A stretch of DNA of 64,000 nt, from assembly GCA_963724535.1 (NCBI GenBank), contig CAVRVD010000011.1:43201-107200 (forward strand), read 5' to 3'. This document shows positions 24,966 through 38,081 of this stretch, in pieces. The notes under the pieces were generated by a model, which had not been told where the DNA came from, made no database searches, and worked only from the letters and a program-made list of their open reading frames with translations. How positions within the stretch are numbered: the stretch's first letter is position 1; every line of letters starts with the position of its first letter. Both the position numbers and the translations under genes were made by a program. The stretch is from an uncultured Actinomycetota bacterium. Lineage in GTDB: Bacteria > Actinomycetota > Actinomycetes > Actinomycetales > Kineosporiaceae.

Positions 24966-25038
24966 GGGCCTCTAGCTCAACTGGCAGAGCAGCGGACTTT
25001 TAATCCGTTGGTTCCGGGTTCGAGCCCCGGGGGGCCTA
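24966..25038 (+). tRNA. tRNA-Lys (anticodon TTT)
   Basis: Hand-folded cloverleaf: acceptor GGGCCTC/GGGGCCT (two G-U pairs), U8 A9, D-arm GCTC-AACTGGCA-GAGC, anticodon arm GCGGA-CTTTTAA-TCCGT (anticodon UUU), variable loop TGGTT, T-arm CCGGG-TTCGAGC-CCCGG, discriminator A. No encoded CCA. Confidence 0.8.
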
Positions 25039-25277
25039 CGAACCTGCAGGTCGCAGGCGGTTTGGGCGTCGTGGGCGAGTCGTGTGATCGTGTTTGCTCC
25101 CATGATTCTCTTCTTCTCGTGCCCGCGAACGGTGAACCGGTCGCACGCTCGAGGCTCCTCCGCGACCGCGCCGATGGTCGGTCAGGACGGTCTCGATCTG
25201 CCCCACGTCGGGGGGCGCCTCCACACCCGCGCCGTTGCCGGGACCACGATAGTGACGGGACACCTCGCGGACACGCC

Positions 25278-27658: not shown

Positions 27659-28252
27659 TCACCTACTCCGTTCCCCGGGACGCCATCTCGTCCCAGGACG
27701 CCGTCTCGCGTTCGATGGTGGCCAGGGGGTCGGGGTCCAGGCCGCCGGGGACGAGCCGGCGCCGCAACCCGGCGGCCTGGGGGGCCCATGGGCTGGGTTT
27801 GCCGCCGTCAGCGGTTCGAGATCGGCGTGCAGGTCGAGGGCGTCGAGTTCGGGCCAGGCCAATCCGTGGCGGCGGGCGATCCGCAGCGCGGCGTCGGCGT
27901 CGTCGCGGGCCCGCCTCAGGTCCCCGGCTGCGGCGTGGACTTGGCCGCGGGCGACCAGGGCGGCGGCGTGAGGGCCGGGCAGGTGGCGGGGCCCGGCCAG
28001 GGTGATCGCCTCGCTCGCCGCGTCCACTGCCGTCGTCGGGTCACCGACCGCCGAGGCGGCCGCCTCCCGGGTCCGGGCAGCATCCCCACTGTCGGGGGTG
28101 GCGGCGGCGAAGTCGAGCCGGGCCACCACCCGGTCACAACGCGCCACGTCCGTGTTCCGGCCCTGCTCGACGGAGATCCGCCAGTTCGCCTCGGTCACCA
28201 TCCGGGCCGGTCCGACCCGGCCGGTGCGGGCCAGGAACTCCCCCCACCACAC
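27659..28252 (-). pseudogene. possible remnant of a TPR-containing regulator (AfsR/MalT-like helical-repeat fragment)
   Basis: A 197-aa ORF with Ala-rich helical-repeat character ('...AITLAGPRHLPGPHAAALVARGQVHAAAGDLRRARDDADAALRIARRHGLAWPEL...'). No N-terminal domain, and it sits in a gene-poor stretch. Weak. Confidence 0.2.
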
Positions 28253-28446: not shown

Positions 28447-29472
28447 CTACGTGGCGCGTGGTCGTCGCGTGTGGCGGGTGCGTCGGTAGGCGTCGACGGC
28501 TCTGCGGGAGCTGCGCCAGATGCCGTCGCTGCCTTGGACGGCGTCCAGACGGCCGCGGTGGGCGGCCTGGCGCAGGGCCGCCACGGTGAGGTCGGCGTCG
28601 GCCAGGGCGGCGAGGGGGACCAGGCGGGCGGGACCGGCCACGTTGGGCACGATGAACCGGTTGAGGTTGTCGAGCATGGCCCGGGCGATCAACTCTGCGA
28701 GGGGGCCGTGGTCACCGGTATCGGACCGGGCCAGGGCCGACAGGTAGGCCGGCCGCTGCTGCTTGAAGATGATCATCGGGGGATGCCCCAAGCGGACCAG
28801 GATCAGGTTGAGGACCAACCGCCCGGCGCGGCCGTTGCCGTCCAGGAACGGATGCACCCGCTCGAAGGCCCCATGCAGCAGAGCGAGTTCCTCCGGCAGG
28901 GGCGCCGGCAGAGCCTTCTCCTGACGGACGACGTCGCCCAGGCCTCGGACCTGGTCGACCCACGTGGCCATCTGCGCGGGCACGTCCGGCCAGGGCGGCG
29001 GGGTCATCCCGGCGTCGAAGGGGTGGATGTCGTGGCGGCGGAAGCTGCCCGGCGACTCCCGCTCATCGGCCTCCGGATGCGGTGCCACACCCCAGACCGG
29101 TGTCATCGCCAGGTGGTGGATCCTGCGGACCTCGTTCAGGGTGACCAGTCCGCCATCGCTCCACGCGTCCGGTTCGAGGGCTTGCCCGTACACCCACCGC
29201 GCGGCATCGGCGTAGCCGCGGACCTCCATGTACTCCCGCAGCGGCTTGGCGCCCACCGCCCGGCCCTGCTCCAGCAGCGCCTCGACCTCCCGCAACACCA
29301 GCGTGTTGCCCTCCAACGCCGTGGAGTGGTGCGCCTCCCGATGCCAGATGTCCGACCAGATCGTCTCGGACTCCTTCGGGCTGGGCAGCCCACCCAACCG
29401 GGTCCGCAGCTCCTCGATCGCGGCGTCCAGCCGCGCGTACACCGTCGCCCGGCTCGGCCGACCCCTCGCCAC
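28447..29472 (-). CDS. Fic-family protein (AMPylation/adenylyltransferase fold)
   Basis: The canonical Fic motif 'HPFLDGNGRAGR' (HxFx[DE]GNGRxxR) is read directly. 341-aa ORF with an AT-rich putative promoter immediately upstream (29473-29530). Confidence 0.8.
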   Translation of the reverse strand: MARGRPSRATVYARLDAAIEELRTRLGGLPSPKESETIWSDIWHREAHHSTALEGNTLVLREVEALLEQGRAVGAKPLREYMEVRGYADAARWVYGQALEPDAWSDGGLVTLNEVRRIHHLAMTPVWGVAPHPEADERESPGSFRRHDIHPFDAGMTPPPWPDVPAQMATWVDQVRGLGDVVRQEKALPAPLPEELALLHGAFERVHPFLDGNGRAGRLVLNLILVRLGHPPMIIFKQQRPAYLSALARSDTGDHGPLAELIARAMLDNLNRFIVPNVAGPARLVPLAALADADLTVAALRQAAHRGRLDAVQGSDGIWRSSRRAVDAYRRTRHTRRPRAT

Positions 29473-29789: not shown

Positions 29790-29829
29790 AATCGGAAGGT
29801 CGGCGGTTCGACCCCGCCCCTGGCCGCCA
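29790..29829 (+). other. orphan tRNA 3'-end fragment (T-arm GGCGG-TTCGACC-CCGCC, acceptor 3' strand CCTGGCC, discriminator G, CCA); probable att-site remnant
   Basis: Read directly. No matching 5' acceptor strand or anticodon arm upstream, so it is not an intact tRNA. It lies about 140 bp from, and faces, the truncated integrase. Confidence 0.45.
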
Positions 29830-29966
29830 GCGAACACGGCCGCAACCCGCCGTTGACCTGCACCGACGCACCGGACTGCGCGGGGTGGACGGTGTCGTGG
29901 GTGACCTGAAGCGGGCGGTACATCAGGTCCGTACATCAACGGCCCGGCCGGCGACTCAGGCTCGGG

Positions 29967-30180
29967 CTACTTTCTTACCCTGCTCGGGTTCTCCGAGAGG
30001 TCCGGGGCCAGGAGGTGCTCGCCGAGACGGTCGAGGGCGGCTCGGCGCTGCTCGGTGGAGGCGTGCGCGTAGATCGTCATCGTGGCGTAGAGCGCGGCGT
30101 GGCCCGCGATCTCCTGCACCACGTGCGGCGGCGTCCGTTCGTTCAAACTGGTAACCAGCAGTGTTCGGAACACGTCGAGT
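29967..30180 (-). pseudogene. tyrosine recombinase/phage integrase, C-terminal fragment only
   Basis: The last 70 aa of track ORF 29967..30596 ('FRTLLVTSLNERTPPHVVQEIAGHAALYATMTIYAHAS...') match the integrase C-terminal box II 'LGHxxxxxTxxYxH' with the catalytic Tyr. The upstream 140 aa of that ORF are Arg/Pro-rich junk, so the catalytic core is missing. Confidence 0.6.
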
Positions 30181-31154
30181 GCCTCCTGACTCTCCTGATC
30201 CTCAGCAGGCATTCGGCCGGGCTGGGAACCAGAGCATGGGGGCAGTCTGTGCCATGTGGATCCTCCCTTGGACGAGGTCTTCGCTCTGCGATGGCGGCGT
30301 GCCAGTGCGGCTGGCAAACCCGTGCGCACGCCTGGGCGTGGAGAGGTCAGGCTCCGAGGCGTTCTCTTGGGTCCGAGGCGATGTGACGGCGCGAGCCGAC
30401 AGGATCTCCCCTGGGACCGCTGATGCCTGCCGCCGGCCCGACAGCCGCACGGCGAGGGGCGCCGGCCCGCCCTTGGTGGCGTCGTGGCTTGGCCGGAGCC
30501 GCCGAGCGGACGCAGTGCCGGGACGCCCCGCGCGTCTGTGGCGTTGCAGCGGATGCCTCGCTGATGCACTGGATACAACAGCAGCTGATGCATCAATCGT
30601 GCGCTGGGTGCATCGCCGTGGTGCCACTGCAGGTGACTCGGCGCGTCGCCGCAGTGTCGTCCCTTCCGCCGTGGGAGCGCGAGACCGTAACCCGTTCAAC
30701 AGCAACGGTTACGTGATCCGCCGAATACCCCCAGAGGATGCATCCGATGCAACTCTGCCCATTTGCAGCAGGGTCAGGCAGGTGTGCCGCAGGTCATGGA
30801 ATCGGACCGGTCCGTCCACCAGCGGTGCGGCTGTAGTCGCGGTGATCAGAATGGCGACTGCCGACTCCCTCTATGTGTTGGTGAGTCATCCGGTGCAGGA
30901 CAGCGAGAACGAGGTGCTCAGGCACCTCACCGTCGTCGGCGGCCCCGCCGGCCGGGGTGCGATCACCGCCGGCCGGCTCGGGCGAGGACGAGGCGCCTGG
31001 CGATGTGCGGGACCGGTGTCCACGCCGCCGTCCTAGGCGGGAACTGGCAGCCGAGCCTCCAGGTGCGGGCGAGGTCGGTGCGCAGGACGGCCTCGACCCG
31101 AGCGCTCAGTGAACCGACCCCGGCCGCACCAGGGGCTCTCAGGATCAGGATCCC

Positions 31155-32849
31155 TCACACCTCGTCCGTACCCGCCGTGCCCGGGTCCGCGCGACTCGCG
31201 GCGTCCGCCTCCGGATCGAACGGCGGTTCCTCGACGAGAGAGCCCCCGTTCTGGGCCGCGTCCGGCTCCAGGGCGTCCGTGCGGCCCAGGCCACTGAGGG
31301 CCTGGGCCGATGGGTGAGGTTCTTCCTGGGTTGCTCGTCGGATCGCGTCCTGGGCCGCCGCGAGCGGGAGGAAGCGCAGGATGGCCTCGGCGTCCTGCCC
31401 GCCGACGAACTGGGGAACGTTCATCGCGGCGAGATGCCTCAGGAAGCGGTCCATGGCGACGTGGTTCGCGCCGAGCAGCCTGAGCTCCTCCTCCAGGATG
31501 ACCGTGTCCAGCTTGCGCTTCTCGCGTTCGGTGGCGTTCTTGATCCCGTCGATCACCGCGACCTGCTCGGCCGCTCGCTTCTCGTTCTCCAGCTCGAGAT
31601 CGCGGTTCTCCCCGTGGCTGAGGATGGCCTCGCGGCGCTCGCGTTCGGCGGCCGTCGCCCGTCGCAGCTCGTCGAAGCGGGGGTCGACGATCCGGAACTC
31701 ACTCAGAGTGGTGCGGACGGCGACGACGCCCCATTCGCTGAGGGCCTGGCTGACTTGTTCCTGCAGCTCCAGGCGGACCTGGCGGTGGTTGTCGAGGAAG
31801 TCGTTCACCCGGTACTCGGCGGCGATGCCGTGCAGGTACCCGTCGACGGTGCTGCCGAGGACCCGCTCGACGAACCGGCGAACCGGCGCCGGGTCGCCTC
31901 GGCCGTCCACCGAGCGTCGCTTCTCCCCGAACCGCCGAACCAGCTTCGGGGCGGCGCTGGCCGGGATGCGGATGGTCTGGGTGATCTCGAACCGGATGGC
32001 GTAGCCCTCGACCATGACCTCCACCTCGTCGAGCGCGGCGTCGTACTGCCCGGCGGCCTTGCGGTCCCTGCTGGTCCACTCCAGGATCAGGTCCCGGGTG
32101 GGGATCGTCACGACCCGCGCGAACCAGGGGTTGATCTGATACTTCCCGCCGTGGCTCAGCGTCTCGGCCTGGACGCCACGTCGTCCGCCGCCATCGAGGA
32201 AGACCCAGGGAAGCTGGAAGTGCATGTGGCCCGGGATCCTCGGGCCGACGGCGTCCTCGTCGGCCTCGTCGTCGGCGGACAGGCCATGCAGAGCGATCAC
32301 CACACCTGTTTCGCCTTCGGGGATGGTGGCCTCCTGCAGGTCGTCTTTGTCGATGTCAACGCCGGGCACCTCGGGGGAGTGGACGGTAACAACCTGGAAC
32401 AGCTCGGGGTTGATGCTGTAGTTCCCCGGCGTGAGCACCGCGGCCTGAGAACCCATGCACCCGCCGCCGCGCAGGAAGGTCGCGCCGTCCTGGAAGTCGG
32501 AGCACTCGACATGCGGCGCCAGCGAGCTGTGCCGGGGCAACGGCCGGCCGGTCCGGGCGATCACCAGCCCGATCGTTCCCGCGGGGACGTGGGTGGTCGG
32601 GTGGAACCGCACGGATAGGAGCCACCGCGGACGTATCACGACCTGGTTGGCGTGCAGGAGTGCCGCCTGGGGCCCGGAGGCGCCGGAGACGCTGACCGTC
32701 CAGCGGGGATCGTCGTCACCACTGCGTCGTCCAGCACGTCTGACAACGACACCGACAGCGTACTCAGGCACACGCACAACGGTCGGCCAGGCGAGCACCG
32801 CGATCGCCGCCGCCAGCACCAGCACGATCACCACGAGCGCGGTCATCAC
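31155..32849 (-). CDS. SPFH/band-7 (flotillin-like) membrane protein
   Basis: 564 aa. An N-terminal TM 'ALVVIVLVLAAAIAVLAW' is followed by an SPFH-like domain and a long charged coiled-coil ('...RRATAAERERREAILSHGENRDLELENEKRAAEQVAVID...'). Confidence 0.6.
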   Translation of the reverse strand: MMTALVVIVLVLAAAIAVLAWPTVVRVPEYAVGVVVRRAGRRSGDDDPRWTVSVSGASGPQAALLHANQVVIRPRWLLSVRFHPTTHVPAGTIGLVIARTGRPLPRHSSLAPHVECSDFQDGATFLRGGGCMGSQAAVLTPGNYSINPELFQVVTVHSPEVPGVDIDKDDLQEATIPEGETGVVIALHGLSADDEADEDAVGPRIPGHMHFQLPWVFLDGGGRRGVQAETLSHGGKYQINPWFARVVTIPTRDLILEWTSRDRKAAGQYDAALDEVEVMVEGYAIRFEITQTIRIPASAAPKLVRRFGEKRRSVDGRGDPAPVRRFVERVLGSTVDGYLHGIAAEYRVNDFLDNHRQVRLELQEQVSQALSEWGVVAVRTTLSEFRIVDPRFDELRRATAAERERREAILSHGENRDLELENEKRAAEQVAVIDGIKNATEREKRKLDTVILEEELRLLGANHVAMDRFLRHLAAMNVPQFVGGQDAEAILRFLPLAAAQDAIRRATQEEPHPSAQALSGLGRTDALEPDAAQNGGSLVEEPPFDPEADAASRADPGTAGTDEV

Positions 32850-32862
32850 AGCCCCACCTCCG

Positions 32863-33852
32863 TCACCACGTCGCGCCGGCGGTCGCCCAGCGCCCGAGTC
32901 TCACATGTACGGCCATGACCGTCTCAAGCCAGTGGTCGTGCCACGTCTGACTGGTCTCGATCTGCGGGTTGCGCAGTGTCGGGAAGAAGCCGGTCGGGTA
33001 GTCCTGGCCGCCCGCGAAGTCCGGATACCGCGGTACGACGTCCCGCCGGGAGCCCCGCCAGCCCAGCGCCAGTGTCAAGTCGGAGAACGCGCGACTCGAC
33101 CCGACCCTCGTGCCGTGGGAGTGGTGGGACCACAGCTCCAGCTGGGCGGTGAAGCCGTGACGACGTGACGTTGCCTGCGACCAGGCCCGGTCGATCCCAG
33201 TGAGCAACGTGGCGGGGAGGTCGGCGCCGTCCCTGCGCCGGAGCCACCCTCTGTCAAGCCGTCCCGCGGCCTCCACGACGACGGATGTCGTGAGGATGTC
33301 GGCGTGTTCAAGGCGCCCCGCGTCCAGCGCCGCGGAAAGCTTCTCCAGGCCGACCGGTGTCGGGACTCCCTGGTGGGGGGTGCCGTGCTCGGGGTGGGGG
33401 GACGCCTTCAGGACCGACTCGGCGGTCCGCCTGCTGCGGCGCTCGTCCGACGACGCGGTGGCATCGCGGAGAGTCCGGAGCTGTCGCAGCTCGCGGGACC
33501 CGGGCAACGACCCGTCCCGGGCGTCGAAGTAGTTGCTGCTGGCGAGGAGAAAGAGCCGTTCGCCGCTGCGCAGTACCGGGAGGAACGGCCTGCCGTGCCG
33601 CTGGCCTTCGAGGATCTCGCGCTCAACCCAATCCGAGCCCTGGGCCCCGTGCGACATGATCACGATCAGCGCCAGGGACCGCTCGATCCGGGCGGCGATC
33701 TCCCGGGGGAAGGTCACACCCCAGGCCAGGCCAGCGTCCATCCAGACCGGGAGGCCGTGGTCGGTCAGGTGCTCGTGCAGGGCCGTCGCGTACTGCGTGT
33801 CGTCCCGTGAGTACGACACGAAGAACCGGGGTTCGCGGTCCATCAAGGTCAC
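32863..33852 (-). CDS. TIR-domain protein with C-terminal GUN4-like domain
   Basis: The N-terminus 'FFVSYSRDDTQYATALHEHLTDHGLPVWMD...IERSLALIVIMSHGAQGSDWVEREI' is a bacterial TIR domain, including an SxW..E-type putative catalytic Glu. The C-terminal half has 'GIDRAWSQATSRRHGFTAQLELW' and 'LALGWRG...YPTGFFPTL', which resemble the GUN4-domain core (IDxLWxxxSxGxFGFSVQ...GW...P.GHLP). 14 bp upstream of the SPFH gene. Confidence 0.55.
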   Translation of the reverse strand: MTLMDREPRFFVSYSRDDTQYATALHEHLTDHGLPVWMDAGLAWGVTFPREIAARIERSLALIVIMSHGAQGSDWVEREILEGQRHGRPFLPVLRSGERLFLLASSNYFDARDGSLPGSRELRQLRTLRDATASSDERRSRRTAESVLKASPHPEHGTPHQGVPTPVGLEKLSAALDAGRLEHADILTTSVVVEAAGRLDRGWLRRRDGADLPATLLTGIDRAWSQATSRRHGFTAQLELWSHHSHGTRVGSSRAFSDLTLALGWRGSRRDVVPRYPDFAGGQDYPTGFFPTLRNPQIETSQTWHDHWLETVMAVHVRLGRWATAGATW

Positions 33853-34321
33853 CGGTCAGCCGCCCACACTGCCCGGTTGACCTGCTGCACGCGCCCGTCG
33901 ATAGTCACCTCGGCTCCTCCCGACCTCGTCCGCCCATGAGGTAGGAGACGGCCAGCGCGTCCCTGATACAGCGTTCTGAGCGGTTGGTCGTCCGACGGCG
34001 AGGTATCGGGTGTGGTGTGGTGCCGCGACCATGGGGCGCCACCAGCCGCTCCAGCTGCGTCTGCAGGGTCGTCGACCCGGCCGGGCGGCCTCGCGATCTG
34101 CGGTGCCATCTCATCAACGCCTTGCCCCGACCGTGGTGCTCAACGGTGGCCCTGCAACGTGTCCCGTGTGCCTCAGCTTCCGTGGGGGATTCCCGCCACG
34201 GCGTCGGCCGCGGCCTACGTCGCATGGCCTTCTCACCTCCGAGGGGTGAGGCGTCGCGGGAGCTCCAGGCGCGAGAATCGGTTCATCCTTGCGCCCCGCG
34301 AACGGCAGCCATGGAGGTCAC

Positions 34322-34700
34322 ATGCCCGACGAGCCGAACATCCTCGTGATCTGGGGAGAGGACATCGGCGTCGGCAACCTCAGCTGCTACAGCGAGGGGT
34401 TGATGGGCTACCGCACGCCGAACAACGACCGGATCGCCCAGGAGAGCGCCCGGTTCGCCGACTACTACACAGAGCAGAGCTGCACGAAGGTGAGCATGCC
34501 GGGGGCTGACATCGGTCTGCAGACCGAGGACCCGACGATCGCCACCGCGCTGAAGGCCCGGGGGCACGCGACGAGGCAGTTCGGCAAGAACCACTTCGGT
34601 GATCGCGATGAGTTCCTACCGATGGCGCACGGGTTCGACGAGTTCTTCGGCAATCTCCACCGCCTCAACTCCGAAGAGGAGCGGGAGCTGCGCGCACGCA
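34322..34700 (+). pseudogene. arylsulfatase (AtsA-type), N-terminal remnant with an in-frame deletion of the active-site motif, then truncated
   Basis: '[51 protein letters not shown]' then '[12 protein letters not shown]...[31 protein letters not shown]'. The Cys/Ser-x-P-x-R formylglycine motif and about 20 flanking residues are missing, and the ORF ends after about 190 aa. Confidence 0.55.
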
Positions 34701-34939
34701 GCGGATCGAGGACACCGGTCCGCTGCCAAGAAGCGGATGGAGACCTGCGACGATCAGTTCCGGGACGCTGCGATCGACTTCATCCGACGTCAGAGCGCCG
34801 CAGAAACACCGTTCTTCGTGCGGGTCAACTCCACGCATATACACTCCCGAACGCACCGTAAGCCGGAGAGCCGTGGCCGGGTCGGCGCGTCGCGGAGCAG
34901 TCTCGACGCCCGCCAAGCCAAGCTGACAAGGAGTCTTCC

Positions 34940-37326: not shown

Positions 37327-38081
37327 GGCTGACGCGGCGTGCGCCGCGGGAGGAGGCGACCCACCACCCGACTCACCGCTTCGTCGCCCGCGATCCCCTG
37401 CATCCGTACGCCCTGCACGGTGTCCGAGGCCATGGACCCGGTCGACTCACGGATGATCTCGGGGAGGTCGATCCCGTCGATGACCTCCTCGGCCAGCCCG
37501 ACCAGGTCGATCCGGTCGATGATCTCGGACAGGTCGATACGCCGAGCCACGGCGTCGACGTCGAGTCGGGCAGCCACGGCGTCGACGTCGAGTCGGGCAG
37601 CCACGGCGTCGACGTCGAGTCGGGCAGCGACGGCGTCGACGTCAAGTCGGGCAGCCGCGGCGTCGAGGTCGACGTCTGCAACCAGCGCGTCGAGGTCGAC
37701 ATACCGCTGGACGGTGCCGGTCAGGTCCACCCGCTGCAGGATCGCGACGAGAACGGCCGGCACCACAGCGTCCAGGAGCGCGCCGAGAGTGCGACGGACC
37801 GAGTCACGCTCCTGGACGCCGCGTTGGGCCATGCCGTCCAGCCAGGCGCGTGGGGCATGCCCCGGCGAGAGCAGGGGCCTCAGCGCCACCCCTGCGACCG
37901 GCGTCAGGCCGGCGACGGCGCGCCGCCCCAGGCGCACAGCCCCCGTCGCCACGACAGCGGAGAGACCAGCGGCCACGTCAAGCGGAACGAGCGGCTCCCG
38001 GCCTGGTCGGGCATTCGCCTCGCCTGATGACGACGTGTCCACGTCACCATGGTGCCCACGCTCAGGCCGTCGGCGCCTCAC
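37323..38081 (-). CDS. hypothetical protein with 4.5 tandem 9-aa repeats (DVDAVAARL)
   Basis: 252-aa ORF; repeats are encoded by 27-bp tandem DNA repeats at 37551-37676. Overlaps the RDD gene start by 4 nt. No recognisable domain. Confidence 0.35.
   Translation of the reverse strand: MRRRRPERGHHGDVDTSSSGEANARPGREPLVPLDVAAGLSAVVATGAVRLGRRAVAGLTPVAGVALRPLLSPGHAPRAWLDGMAQRGVQERDSVRRTLGALLDAVVPAVLVAILQRVDLTGTVQRYVDLDALVADVDLDAAAARLDVDAVAARLDVDAVAARLDVDAVAARLDVDAVARRIDLSEIIDRIDLVGLAEEVIDGIDLPEIIRESTGSMASDTVQGVRMQGIAGDEAVSRVVGRLLPRRTPRQP
37551..37676. repeat. 27-bp tandem repeat (ggcgtcgacgtcgagtcgggcagccac) x about 4.6
   Basis: Read directly; encodes DVDAVAARL repeats on the minus strand. Confidence 0.65.

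What the first reader, a model, noticed from the sequence alone, without database searches (positions are those of the whole stretch)
31155..33852. Two-gene operon: TIR-domain protein with GUN4-like C-terminal domain + SPFH/flotillin-like membrane protein, abutting integrase/tRNA remnants
- TIR protein: 32863..33852 begins with a bacterial-type TIR domain. That domain has a Glu in an S-D-W-V-E-R-E context at the position where NAD+-cleaving TIRs carry the catalytic Glu. Its C-terminal half resembles the GUN4 porphyrin-binding domain core (IDRAWSQATSRRHGFTAQLELW ... LALGWRG ... YPTGFFPTL).
- SPFH protein: 14 bp downstream is a 564-aa SPFH/band-7 protein with one TM helix and a long coiled coil.
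- Location: the pair sits immediately beside the truncated integrase, the orphan tRNA fragment and the AT-rich spacer. That is exactly where defence cargo is expected.
- Why unusual: TIR proteins are effectors or signal generators in Thoeris, CBASS-like and other antiphage systems. SPFH scaffolds are also repeatedly found in defence islands. I do not know a described system pairing TIR-GUN4 with SPFH, so this is a candidate novel conflict system. One option is NAD+ depletion or a TIR-derived signal coupled to a membrane scaffold. A ligand-sensing role for the GUN4-like domain is another possibility.
Basis: partly seen in the sequence, partly recalled or inferred. Interest (0 to 1): 0.8.

Follow-up and report, generated by a model that had tools for sequence, protein, structure and literature searches.

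The report
Conserved TIR-GUN4 plus SPFH cassette
A two-gene operon pairs a probable NAD-cleaving TIR enzyme carrying a GUN4-type ligand-binding domain with a membrane-anchored, cage-forming SPFH protein; the pair recurs in filamentous actinomycetes with swappable "killer" domains, which points to an undescribed immune or cell-suicide module whose function has not been tested.

Summary
32863-33852(-) encodes a TIR + GUN4 protein and 31155-32849(-) encodes a one-TM, coiled-coil SPFH protein. The genes are 13 nt apart, with a GGAGG ribosome-binding site between them.

**Pairing.** It is not a chance adjacency.
- Of 80 SPFH-anchored genome loci (all Actinomycetota), 76 have a GUN4-domain gene directly upstream on the same strand.
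- Of 18 GUN4-anchored metagenome loci, all 17 testable ones have the SPFH gene directly downstream.
- No third gene is universal.

**Modularity.** GUN4 + SPFH is the constant module. The N-terminal domain of the GUN4 protein swaps between TIR, TIR-TIR, caspase, Ser/Thr kinase, trypsin-VMAP-TIR and unknown domains.

**Window version.** It is the minimal class: a single TIR with an intact DWVEREI motif, where E79 corresponds to SARM1 E642.

**SPFH protein.** It has three tandem beta repeats, resembles prohibitin, stomatin and major vault protein, and is predicted to face the cytoplasm.

**Best reading (inferred, about 0.5).** A conflict or programmed-death system in which a cytoplasmic SPFH cage and the GUN4 domain control a TIR NADase.

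**Caveats.**
- Immediate neighbours across the family are ordinary genes with no clear defence enrichment.
- Composition is native.
- The porphyrin-binding Arg of GUN4 is not clearly kept.

I found no published description.

The parts
32863..33852 (-). Gene 1: TIR-GUN4 protein (329 aa from GTG 33852; public gene calls start at ATG 33843, 326 aa)
   Evidence: ORF; Pfam TIR_2 + GUN4; 112 homologue clusters; identical protein P0001 on independent contigs
33499..33825 (-). TIR domain (res 10-118)
   Evidence: Pfam TIR_2 4e-17; profile hits AbTir 3.4e-9 and SARM1; Foldseek hits SARM1, SPARTA and AbTir
33613..33633 (-). D74-W-V-E-R-E79-I80 motif; E79 (codon 33616-33618) is the predicted catalytic Glu, matching SARM1 D-W-V-H-K-E642-I
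   Evidence: Invariant in A1. Retained in all 15 single-TIR loci. Aligned to AbTir NWTEYEL. SARM1 numbering is from my own knowledge, cross-checked against the G601P entry title.
32881..33360 (-). GUN4-like domain (about res 165-324)
   Evidence: Pfam GUN4 1.3e-14; PDB profile 1z3x 3e-12, 7e2r 1.2e-10, 1y6i 1.2e-8; Foldseek 7e2r TMt 0.70; PADLOC PD-T4-6 model positions 311-424, 5.2e-10
32956..32988 (-). Family-specific, near-invariant F289-F-P-T-L-R-N-P-Q-x-E299 motif at the alpha6/alpha7-loop position of GUN4 (P291 = SynGUN4 Pro208)
   Evidence: Invariant columns in A1 and A3. HMM alignments to solved Gun4 end at GFFP = GHLP. It was a specific enough search pattern to retrieve 18 metagenome loci.
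32850..32862 (-). 13-nt intergenic spacer with GGAGG Shine-Dalgarno (32857-32861), 7 nt before the GTG of gene 2
   Evidence: Sequence read directly; no terminator-like site inside the pair
31155..32849 (-). Gene 2: SPFH/Band-7 membrane protein (564 aa)
   Evidence: ORF; Band_7 4.4e-13; 122 homologue clusters; AF2 pLDDT 78; Foldseek hits prohibitin, MVP, stomatin, HflK/C and flotillin
32781..32846 (-). N-terminal TM helix (res 2-23), predicted N-out/C-in
   Evidence: AF2 helix 2-23; K/R count 10 before vs 65 after the TM in 26 homologues
32085..32780 (-). Three tandem beta-rich repeats (about res 24-90, 86-165, 170-255), vault-protein-like
   Evidence: hhalign repeat-vs-repeat probability 97-98.5%; MVP Foldseek hits over 550-600 columns
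31680..32084 (-). SPFH alpha/beta core (about res 256-390)
   Evidence: Pfam Band_7 res 225-408; AF2 secondary structure
31425..31679 (-). Long helix / coiled coil (res 391-475), the wall-forming element in solved SPFH cages
   Evidence: AF2 H391-459 and H461-475; the structural analogues are all cage formers
31158..31424 (-). C-terminal region: short helices, then a low-confidence acidic, Pro-rich tail (res 509-564)
   Evidence: pLDDT <50 for 509-561

Best explanation
A self-contained two-gene operon of filamentous actinomycetes that most likely acts as a conflict system (anti-phage abortive infection or regulated cell death).

- Gene 1 supplies an effector. In this window it is a single TIR domain with an intact SARM1/AbTir-type catalytic Glu, so NAD+ cleavage is the expected activity. 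The TIR is fused to a GUN4-fold domain.
- Gene 2 supplies a membrane-anchored SPFH protein. Its bulk faces the cytoplasm and, like every structurally characterised relative, it probably assembles into a large ring or cage on the inner face of the membrane.
- GUN4 + SPFH is the constant sensing and control module. GUN4 either docks the effector to the cage or binds a hydrophobic ligand. The N-terminal enzyme is the interchangeable output.
- Proposed sequence: in the resting state the effector is held on or in the cage in a non-productive state. A trigger such as membrane perturbation, infection or a ligand bound in the GUN4 pocket then allows TIR-TIR assembly, which creates the composite active site and depletes NAD+.

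Shown: domain identities, operon structure, obligate pairing, effector swapping, retention of the catalytic motif, cytoplasmic topology by the positive-inside rule.

Inferred: NADase activity, cage formation, GUN4-SPFH contact, the trigger, and the defence or death role.
For: 1. Obligate synteny in both directions: 76/80 SPFH-anchored genome loci, 17/17 testable GUN4-anchored metagenome loci, 3/3 spot checks, many shared contig lengths. No other conserved gene.
2. Tight coupling: 13-nt spacer with GGAGG; 4-nt gene overlaps in relatives L108 and L109.
3. Effector modularity on a constant GUN4 + SPFH module: TIR, TIR-TIR, caspase, kinase, trypsin-VMAP-M8-TIR and unknown N-termini. The caspase versions keep His/Cys-type motifs. 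The GUN4-anchored census adds SEFIR, CHAT, EAD1 and TCAD9. These are the domains of the conflict systems described in PMC7159879 and PMC8195603.
4. Catalytic competence: DWVEREI is invariant in the window's class. Where the GUN4-proximal TIR has lost the Glu (E to M), most proteins carry a second N-terminal TIR that keeps it, and an accessory TIR gene (mostly TM-anchored) is usually present. This pattern implies selection for at least one active TIR.
5. The GUN4 region matches the C-terminal part of a PADLOC model of PD-T4-6, an E. coli anti-phage gene.
6. The SPFH fold matches only cage or ring formers. Topology puts it on the same side of the membrane as TIR-GUN4.
7. Rare and patchy: 148 relatives among 185,579 species genomes and 99 GUN4-subtype representatives at E<=1e-10 among 1.84 billion, in variable neighbourhoods. 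In this window the downstream flank differs between two 99.9%-identical strains and holds integrase, tRNA and Fic debris.
Against: - No experiment exists.
- Nearest neighbours are mostly ordinary metabolic and regulatory genes with no clear excess of known defence genes.
- Cassette GC3 equals that of its neighbours, so there is no sign of recent transfer.
- No GUN4 relative was found on viral contigs.
- This SPFH has no PADLOC hit.
- The one apparent fusion protein (P0228) lacks the GUN4 C-terminal helix and the SPFH TM, so it looks like a frameshift or deletion product.
- The direction of control (cage as inhibitor or as activating platform) is unknown.
Confidence: 0.5

Rival explanations
1. 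Thoeris-like signalling pair. The TIR-GUN4 protein is a ThsB-type signal generator that makes an ADPR-derived nucleotide after sensing infection. The SPFH membrane protein is the effector that binds the signal and damages the membrane.
For: - Weak ThsB_TIR Pfam hit (22.1 bits vs cut-off 21.2) and PADLOC ThsB/SAVED_TIR hits.
- Two-gene TIR + membrane-protein operons are a recognised Thoeris layout. A 2025 survey (bioRxiv 10.64898/2025.12.03.692087) lists 29 putative types with TM or unknown effectors.
- SPFH proteins oligomerise at membranes.
Against: - The TIR position is occupied by caspase, kinase or trypsin domains in sister cassettes with the same SPFH. A nucleotide-sensing effector would not tolerate that.
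- The SPFH protein has no recognisable signal-binding domain (SLOG, Macro, SAVED, CARF); only Band_7 is detected.
- NCBIfam Thoeris models score far below their cut-offs (30.6 vs 220).
- GUN4 and SPFH are not mentioned in the survey's main text.
Confidence: 0.15
2. A physiological, non-immune module of filamentous actinomycetes, for example tetrapyrrole/heme-linked or membrane-stress-linked regulated cell death or remodelling during hyphal development. GUN4 senses a porphyrin and the SPFH complex organises a membrane microdomain.
For: - The GUN4 fold and most core 'palm' residues are kept.
- GUN4 is a bona fide porphyrin binder (PMC1084334).
- The distribution is restricted to mycelial, multicellular actinomycetes.
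- Native composition and ordinary neighbourhoods.
- Bacterial SPFH complexes have housekeeping roles, e.g. in respiration (PMC12005517, listed).
Against: - Very rare and patchy for a developmental function.
- Interchangeable death-type effectors and links to VMAP, EAD and TCAD conflict domains.
- SynGUN4 Arg214, essential for porphyrin binding, falls on Gln297 in an ungapped register, and the HMM alignment breaks there.
- No tetrapyrrole-pathway gene is adjacent.
Confidence: 0.25
3. Chance adjacency of two unrelated genes in a decaying island, with no functional link.
For: Pseudogene debris surrounds the pair in this window: a sulfatase fragment, an integrase remnant and a tRNA fragment.
Against: The pairing recurs in 76/80 and 17/17 independent loci across many genera, in different neighbourhoods, with tight spacing.
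Confidence: 0.01

Closest known systems
NADase TIR effectors (SARM1, AbTir, SPARTA TIR-APAZ)
   Same: TIR fold. D-W-V-x-[KR]-E-I motif with the catalytic Glu (E79 = SARM1 E642). These effectors are activated by oligomerisation on a scaffold.
   Different: Fused to a GUN4 domain and genetically tied to an SPFH protein. No ARM/SAM domains, Argonaute or SAVED partner.
Thoeris (ThsB TIR + ThsA-type effector)
   Same: Two-gene TIR operon; marginal ThsB_TIR hit.
   Different: No signal-sensing effector domain in the partner. The TIR is replaceable by caspase, kinase or trypsin domains. NCBIfam Thoeris models are far below their cut-offs.
PD-T4-6 (E. coli anti-phage Ser/Thr kinase gene; PADLOC models)
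   Same: The C-terminal part of PADLOC model PDLC04062 (positions 311-424 of 450) matches this GUN4 domain at 5.2e-10. The kinase-GUN4 + SPFH variants (L028, L030) are the direct architectural analogue.
   Different: PADLOC treats PD-T4-6 as a single protein model, and I saw no SPFH partner described for it. The window protein carries a TIR, not a kinase.
GUN4-bearing effectors of VMAP/iSTAND/TRADD-N conflict systems (Kaur et al. 2020, 2021)
   Same: GUN4 fused to TIR, caspase, trypsin and kinase domains. A VMAP-M8 domain is present in the Streptosporangium variants. Enrichment in multicellular bacteria. Band-7 is noted there as a scaffolding domain.
   Different: Those papers call GUN4 cyanobacteria-specific and place it in vWA-MoxR ternary systems. 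Here it is actinobacterial, no vWA or MoxR gene was called within 10 kb of the cassette, and the obligate partner is a stand-alone SPFH gene.
SPFH cages with an operon partner (HflK/C-FtsH, QmcA-YbbJ/NfeD; also prohibitin, stomatin, flotillin, major vault protein)
   Same: N-terminal membrane anchor, SPFH core and a long wall-forming helix. A partner gene is encoded in the same operon. Extra N-terminal beta repeats resemble the vault protein.
   Different: The partner is a TIR-GUN4 protein rather than a protease or NfeD. The triplicated beta unit is unusual for bacterial SPFH proteins.
Canonical GUN4 (Mg-chelatase cofactor of cyanobacteria and plants)
   Same: Same fold and most core residues; Pfam and PDB matches.
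   Different: The host is presumably non-photosynthetic and no chelatase gene is nearby. The alpha6/alpha7-loop segment carrying the essential Arg214 is replaced by an invariant FFPTLRNPQxE motif.

Membership tests
TIR domain, NADase type | TIR HMM or fold match above threshold | tested here: met
   TIR_2 63.3 bits vs cut-off 28; AbTir and SARM1 profile hits; Foldseek
TIR domain, NADase type | Catalytic Glu at the SARM1 E642 / AbTir position (W+4) | tested here: met
   D74WVERE79I; aligned to AbTir NWTEYEL; invariant in the family
TIR domain, NADase type | NAD+ hydrolase or cyclase activity | not testable with these tools
   Needs a biochemical assay
GUN4 (PF05419) | HMM above the gathering score and GUN4 fold | tested here: met
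   54.9 bits vs 29.2; 1z3x 3e-12; 7e2r TMt 0.70
GUN4 (PF05419) | Porphyrin-binding Arg (SynGUN4 Arg214) in the alpha6/alpha7 loop | tested here: inconclusive
   HMM alignments stop at GFFP = GHLP (Pro208). An ungapped register gives Gln297, and Arg294 lies 3 residues earlier.
GUN4 (PF05419) | Association with Mg-chelatase / chlorophyll pathway | tested here: not met
   No chelatase or tetrapyrrole gene among called genes within 10 kb or among 121 nearest neighbours of relatives
SPFH / Band-7 | Band_7 HMM and SPFH fold | tested here: met
   50.1 bits vs 23.6; prohibitin, stomatin and HflK/C hits
SPFH / Band-7 | Membrane anchor plus C-terminal coiled-coil helix | tested here: met
   AF2 helices 2-23 and 391-475
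SPFH / Band-7 | Large homo-oligomeric ring or cage | not testable with these tools
   Only a monomer was modelled; inferred from structural analogues
SPFH-NfeD operon | NfeD-family partner gene | tested here: not met
   The partner is TIR-GUN4; no NfeD Pfam hit in the locus
Thoeris | ThsB-type TIR | tested here: inconclusive
   ThsB_TIR 22.1 bits vs 21.2; NCBIfam ThcB4 30.6 vs 220
Thoeris | Partner effector with a signal-binding domain (SLOG, Macro or similar) | tested here: not met
   The SPFH protein shows only Band_7 and has no PADLOC hit
PD-T4-6 | Ser/Thr kinase domain | tested here: not met
   The window protein has a TIR instead. The kinase is present only in variants L028 and L030.
PD-T4-6 | C-terminal GUN4-like region | tested here: met
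   PDLC04062 positions 311-424 of 450, E=5.2e-10
VMAP ternary conflict system | Adjacent vWA and MoxR genes | tested here: not met
   None among called genes within 10 kb. VMAP-M8 occurs only in the Streptosporangium variants.

The most novel reading that the evidence does not exclude
GUN4 + SPFH is a previously unrecognised sensing and caging module. A cytoplasm-facing SPFH cage on the membrane holds GUN4-tagged death effectors (TIR, caspase, kinase, trypsin). It releases or activates them when the GUN4 pocket binds a hydrophobic metabolite, such as a tetrapyrrole freed by membrane or respiratory-chain damage, or when the cage itself is perturbed. That would be the first immune or cell-death role for both a GUN4 domain and an SPFH cage in non-photosynthetic bacteria.
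Probability: 0.3. Interest if true: 0.85.

Novelty: new variant of a known kind. Interest (0 to 1): 0.66.

Why it matters
TIR NADases, caspases and kinases are established outputs of bacterial immunity, but how they are held in check is known for only a few sensors.

This case offers a genetically obligate pairing of such effectors with two modules that have no assigned immune role:
- GUN4, previously regarded as a cyanobacterial and plant porphyrin-binding domain.
- A vault-like SPFH cage.

If confirmed, it would give three things:
- A new control logic, with a membrane-cage-tethered effector.
- A function for GUN4 domains outside photosynthesis.
- A testable role for one of the many bacterial SPFH proteins whose physiology is unclear.

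It also gives a compact two-gene version, this window's class, that is convenient for experiments.

Tried and rejected
- **Rosetta-stone fusion.** P0228 (948 aa, TIR-TIR-GUN4-Band_7) first looked like fusion evidence. The sequence lacks the GUN4 C-terminal helix and the SPFH TM and comes from a single short-read contig. It is probably a frameshift or deletion, so I gave it little weight.
- **Defence-island enrichment.** Pfam and PADLOC scans of 121 nearest neighbours showed heterogeneous ordinary genes. The only recurrent hits were TIR (8) and kinase (6-7), which are accessory parts of the cassette itself. I did not run a distant-gene control because the near set was already uninformative.
- **Horizontal-transfer signature.** GC3 of the cassette vs its neighbours differs by -0.003 (p=0.91). 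Total GC is only 0.8% lower.
- **Prophage or viral carriage.** Only distant multi-repeat SPFH proteins (26-39% identity) turned up on low-GC viral contigs, with no GUN4.
- **Degraded third gene.** I searched the ~1 kb downstream of SPFH and the whole window for an accessory TM-TIR gene and found none.
- **tRNA att repeat.** The tRNA fragment has no second copy in the window, and tRNA-Lys at 24966 is unrelated to it.
- **Organism name.** The cluster look-up returned no names.
- **PD-T4-6 text.** The Vassallo 2022 main text mentions only 'a eukaryotic-like Ser/Thr kinase'.


Full report
**1. Observation**

The window is about 72% G+C. The minus strand carries two tightly spaced ORFs: 32863-33852 (329 aa) and 31155-32849 (564 aa).

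*First protein (TIR-GUN4).*
- Pfam gives TIR_2 (E=4e-17, res 10-118) and GUN4 (E=1.3e-14, res 169-295), both well above their gathering scores.
- A 25-sequence family profile hits the NADase TIRs AbTir (3.4e-9) and SARM1, and the solved Gun4 structures 1z3x and 1y6i.
- A GUN4-only profile of 48 sequences improves 1z3x to 3e-12.
- The AlphaFold model (pLDDT 84, pTM 0.74) matches SARM1, SPARTA and AbTir TIRs and plant GUN4 (7e2r, TMt 0.70).

*Second protein (SPFH).*
- Pfam gives Band_7 (E=4.4e-13).
- The model (pLDDT 78) shows a TM helix (2-23), a beta-rich region (24-255), the SPFH core, a helix of about 85 residues (391-475) and a disordered tail.
- It matches prohibitin (1.7e-10), major vault protein (1.4e-9), stomatin, erlin, HflK/C, flotillin and QmcA.
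- The beta region is three tandem copies of one unit (hhalign probability 97-98.5%).

*Junction.* The genes are separated by 13 nt containing GGAGG, 7 nt before the GTG start. No terminator-like site lies between them.

**2. The pair is a conserved cassette**

- Homologue searches gave 112 clusters for TIR-GUN4 and 122 for SPFH, with many shared contig lengths.
- A scan of one genome per species (185,579 species) with the SPFH alignment found 148 relatives. The 80 loci fetched are all Actinomycetota: Streptomyces, Lentzea, Streptosporangium, Actinomadura, Nonomuraea, Parafrankia, Dactylosporangium, Catenulispora and others.
- In 76 of the 80, a GUN4-domain ORF lies immediately upstream on the same strand. 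The four exceptions are:
  - one 1.5-kb contig, which is untestable;
  - one orphan SPFH behind a PucR regulator;
  - one SPFH behind a NACHT/STAND protein;
  - L003, where the partner ORF is only 193 aa in my reconstruction, although GUN4 and TIR hits are present.
- In the reciprocal test, a metagenome scan anchored on the GUN4 motif GF[FY]PTLR[ND]P returned 18 loci. All 17 with enough downstream sequence carry the SPFH gene directly downstream.
- Three further TIR-GUN4 homologues whose contigs were absent from the SPFH list also have Band_7 next door, with a 14-nt gap in one and 4-nt overlaps in two.
- Clustering of all flanking ORFs found no third universal gene.

**3. Modularity**

The protein upstream of SPFH always ends in the GUN4 domain, but its N-terminus varies:
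- TIR (about 310-335 aa, as in this window);
- TIR-TIR (about 460-510 aa, the majority in Streptomyces and Actinomadura);
- caspase (L020, L079);
- Ser/Thr kinase followed by a degenerate TIR-like spacer (L028, L030);
- Trypsin_2-VMAP-M8-TIR (L006, L010);
- N-termini with no Pfam match (L024, L104).

The caspase versions keep His-Gly and Asp-x-Cys motifs.

An exhaustive search with the window's GUN4 domain found only 468 representatives at E<=1e-3 (99 at <=1e-10) among 1.84 billion. Forty of the longer ones carry TIR (19), caspase (7), kinase (4), trypsin, SEFIR, CHAT, EAD1, AAA_35 and TCAD9. This is the domain vocabulary of the conflict systems described by Kaur et al. (PMC7159879, PMC8195603).

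**4. Catalytic status**

- The window protein has D74-W-V-E-R-E79-I. This aligns with AbTir N-W-T-E-Y-E-L and matches SARM1 D-W-V-H-K-E642-I. The SARM1 numbering is from my own knowledge and is consistent with the G601P entry.
- All 15 single-TIR loci keep E79, and none of them has an extra TIR gene nearby.
- Among roughly 51 double-TIR loci, the GUN4-proximal TIR has Met at this position in about 32. In most of those the distal TIR keeps the Glu.
- 45 loci have an accessory TIR gene next to the cassette, mostly a protein of about 190 aa with TM, Pro-rich linker and TIR (TIR_2 down to 3.7e-30).
- About ten loci add a kinase-like gene.
- The window has neither accessory gene. It therefore carries the minimal two-gene form, with a catalytically intact TIR.

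**5. GUN4 domain**

- Core residues shared with cyanobacterial Gun4 are conserved (HAD..TT, ID..W, GF.AQ, GW).
- The HMM alignments end at GFFP = GHLP (SynGUN4 Pro208). Beyond that point the family has its own near-invariant FFPTLRNPQxE...W..W..T segment.
- SynGUN4 Arg214 is essential for porphyrin binding (PMC1084334). In an ungapped register it corresponds to Gln297, and Arg294 lies three residues earlier.
- Tetrapyrrole binding is therefore neither supported nor excluded.
- The GUN4 region matches the C-terminal part of a PADLOC model for the E. coli anti-phage gene PD-T4-6 (5.2e-10).

**6. Topology**

In 26 homologues the residues before the TM segment hold 10 K/R, against 65 in the 15 residues after it. 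Most N-termini are 0-4 uncharged residues, and the few longer ones appear to have two TM segments. By the positive-inside rule, the SPFH body is cytoplasmic. That is the same compartment as TIR-GUN4, which has no signal peptide or TM segment.

**7. Context**

- The window is 99.87% identical to an ENA metagenome contig from position 43842 down to 29275 and then diverges. The other strain has rve and integrase fragments where the window has a complete Fic gene.
- Downstream of SPFH lie about 1 kb without a convincing gene, an integrase C-terminal remnant (29966-30172) and a tRNA 3' fragment with CCA (29798-29829).
- Upstream lies a truncated sulfatase.
- So the local flank is a variable, decayed region. 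Family-wide the picture differs:
  - the nearest neighbours span 127 Pfam families in 121 genes, with no clear defence enrichment;
  - GC3 is native;
  - no viral contig carries the GUN4 partner.

**8. Interpretation**

The constant GUN4 + SPFH module with interchangeable enzymatic heads argues that the heads are outputs and that GUN4/SPFH is the control unit. It also argues against a Thoeris-type scheme in which the SPFH protein would sense a TIR-made nucleotide.

By analogy with HflK/C-FtsH and QmcA-NfeD, where an operon partner sits in or on the SPFH cage, I propose that GUN4 tethers the effector to a cytoplasmic SPFH cage. A membrane- or ligand-derived trigger would then permit TIR assembly and NAD+ depletion.

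Rarity, patchiness, restriction to mycelial actinomycetes and the death-type effectors favour a conflict or programmed-death role. Whether the target is phage or something else is untested.

**9. Novelty**

Full-text searches found no description of a GUN4-SPFH or TIR-GUN4-SPFH system.
- Kaur et al. describe GUN4 fusions as cyanobacteria-specific and Band-7 as a scaffolding domain within VMAP proteins. They do not describe this cassette.
- PADLOC v2 has no model for the SPFH protein.

I classify it as a new variant of a known kind: a TIR/caspase-effector conflict system with an undescribed control module.

Noticed in passing
window 28447-29472 (-): Complete Fic/DOC-family gene with strong hits to PADLOC candidate PDC-S04 (1.3e-26) and SoFic (4.7e-23). 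The near-identical sister contig L081 diverges from the window inside this gene (at window position 29275) and carries rve/integrase fragments instead.
   Followed up: partly
window 29798-29829 (+) and 29966-30172 (-): Orphan tRNA 3' end (T-arm, acceptor and CCA) with no second copy in the window, next to a 68-aa integrase C-terminal remnant. Looks like the scar of an integrative element. The only intact tRNA (Lys, 24966-25039) is unrelated to the fragment.
   Followed up: partly
window 30200-31150: About 1 kb between the SPFH stop and the integrase remnant. A public gene call places a 260-aa ORF here with no Pfam hit, but its Arg-rich translation looks non-coding. I found no homologue of the accessory TM-TIR gene here.
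   Followed up: partly
window 34289-34861 (+): Sulfatase fragment: only profile positions 1-126 of 301 are present. It is a truncated pseudogene directly upstream of the cassette.
   Followed up: no
window 37545-37699: A 27-nt tandem repeat of 5.7 copies (89% matches) inside a long ORF pair, encoding a 9-residue peptide repeat (read as VDVESGSHG or DVDAVAARL depending on strand).
   Followed up: partly
L029:11828-12427(-), L070:11603-12172(-), L049:7498-8121(+) and about 40 other loci: Accessory small TM-(Pro-rich linker)-TIR gene next to the cassette. It is found almost only where the GUN4 protein has two TIRs and is absent from all 15 single-TIR loci with an intact Glu. About 10 loci also have a kinase-like gene directly upstream.
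   Followed up: partly
L075:6757-9924(+) and L016:9923-12133(+): Two SPFH relatives without a GUN4 partner. One follows a 1055-aa NACHT/STAND protein. The other is an orphan 736-aa SPFH behind a PucR-type regulator.
   Followed up: partly
L024:8757-9560(+) and L104:6071-7050(+): GUN4 partners whose N-terminal modules of about 260-320 aa have no Pfam match (and, for L024, no PDB sequence match). They may be new effector domains.
   Followed up: partly
L085, L087, L088 (IMG/VR contigs, 38-39% GC), e.g. L085:7808-12175: A distant SPFH protein of 775 aa with four or more copies of the same beta repeat (vault-protein-like), preceded by a 580-aa ORF with a weak DUF2828 hit (E=8e-5, below cut-off). 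A vault-like pair on viral contigs; not related to GUN4.
   Followed up: no
L076 (Lentzea sp. NPDC051213) and L078 (Streptomyces sp. NBC_01511): Apparently decaying copies. In L076 the SPFH is split across two frames. In L078 the TIR is split and the SPFH match is truncated.
   Followed up: no
L006:12123-17457(+), also L010 and two other Streptosporangium loci: A conserved trio downstream of the cassette: an Hsp70-like gene, an 850-aa protein with no Pfam hit and a 399-aa protein. L107 instead has PP2C + kinase + vWA downstream, and L109 has a convergent NACHT gene.
   Followed up: no
window 28039-28110 (+): Sub-threshold Rfam match to Pseudomonas sRNA P10 (26 bits vs gathering score 37). Probably chance in GC-rich sequence.
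   Followed up: no
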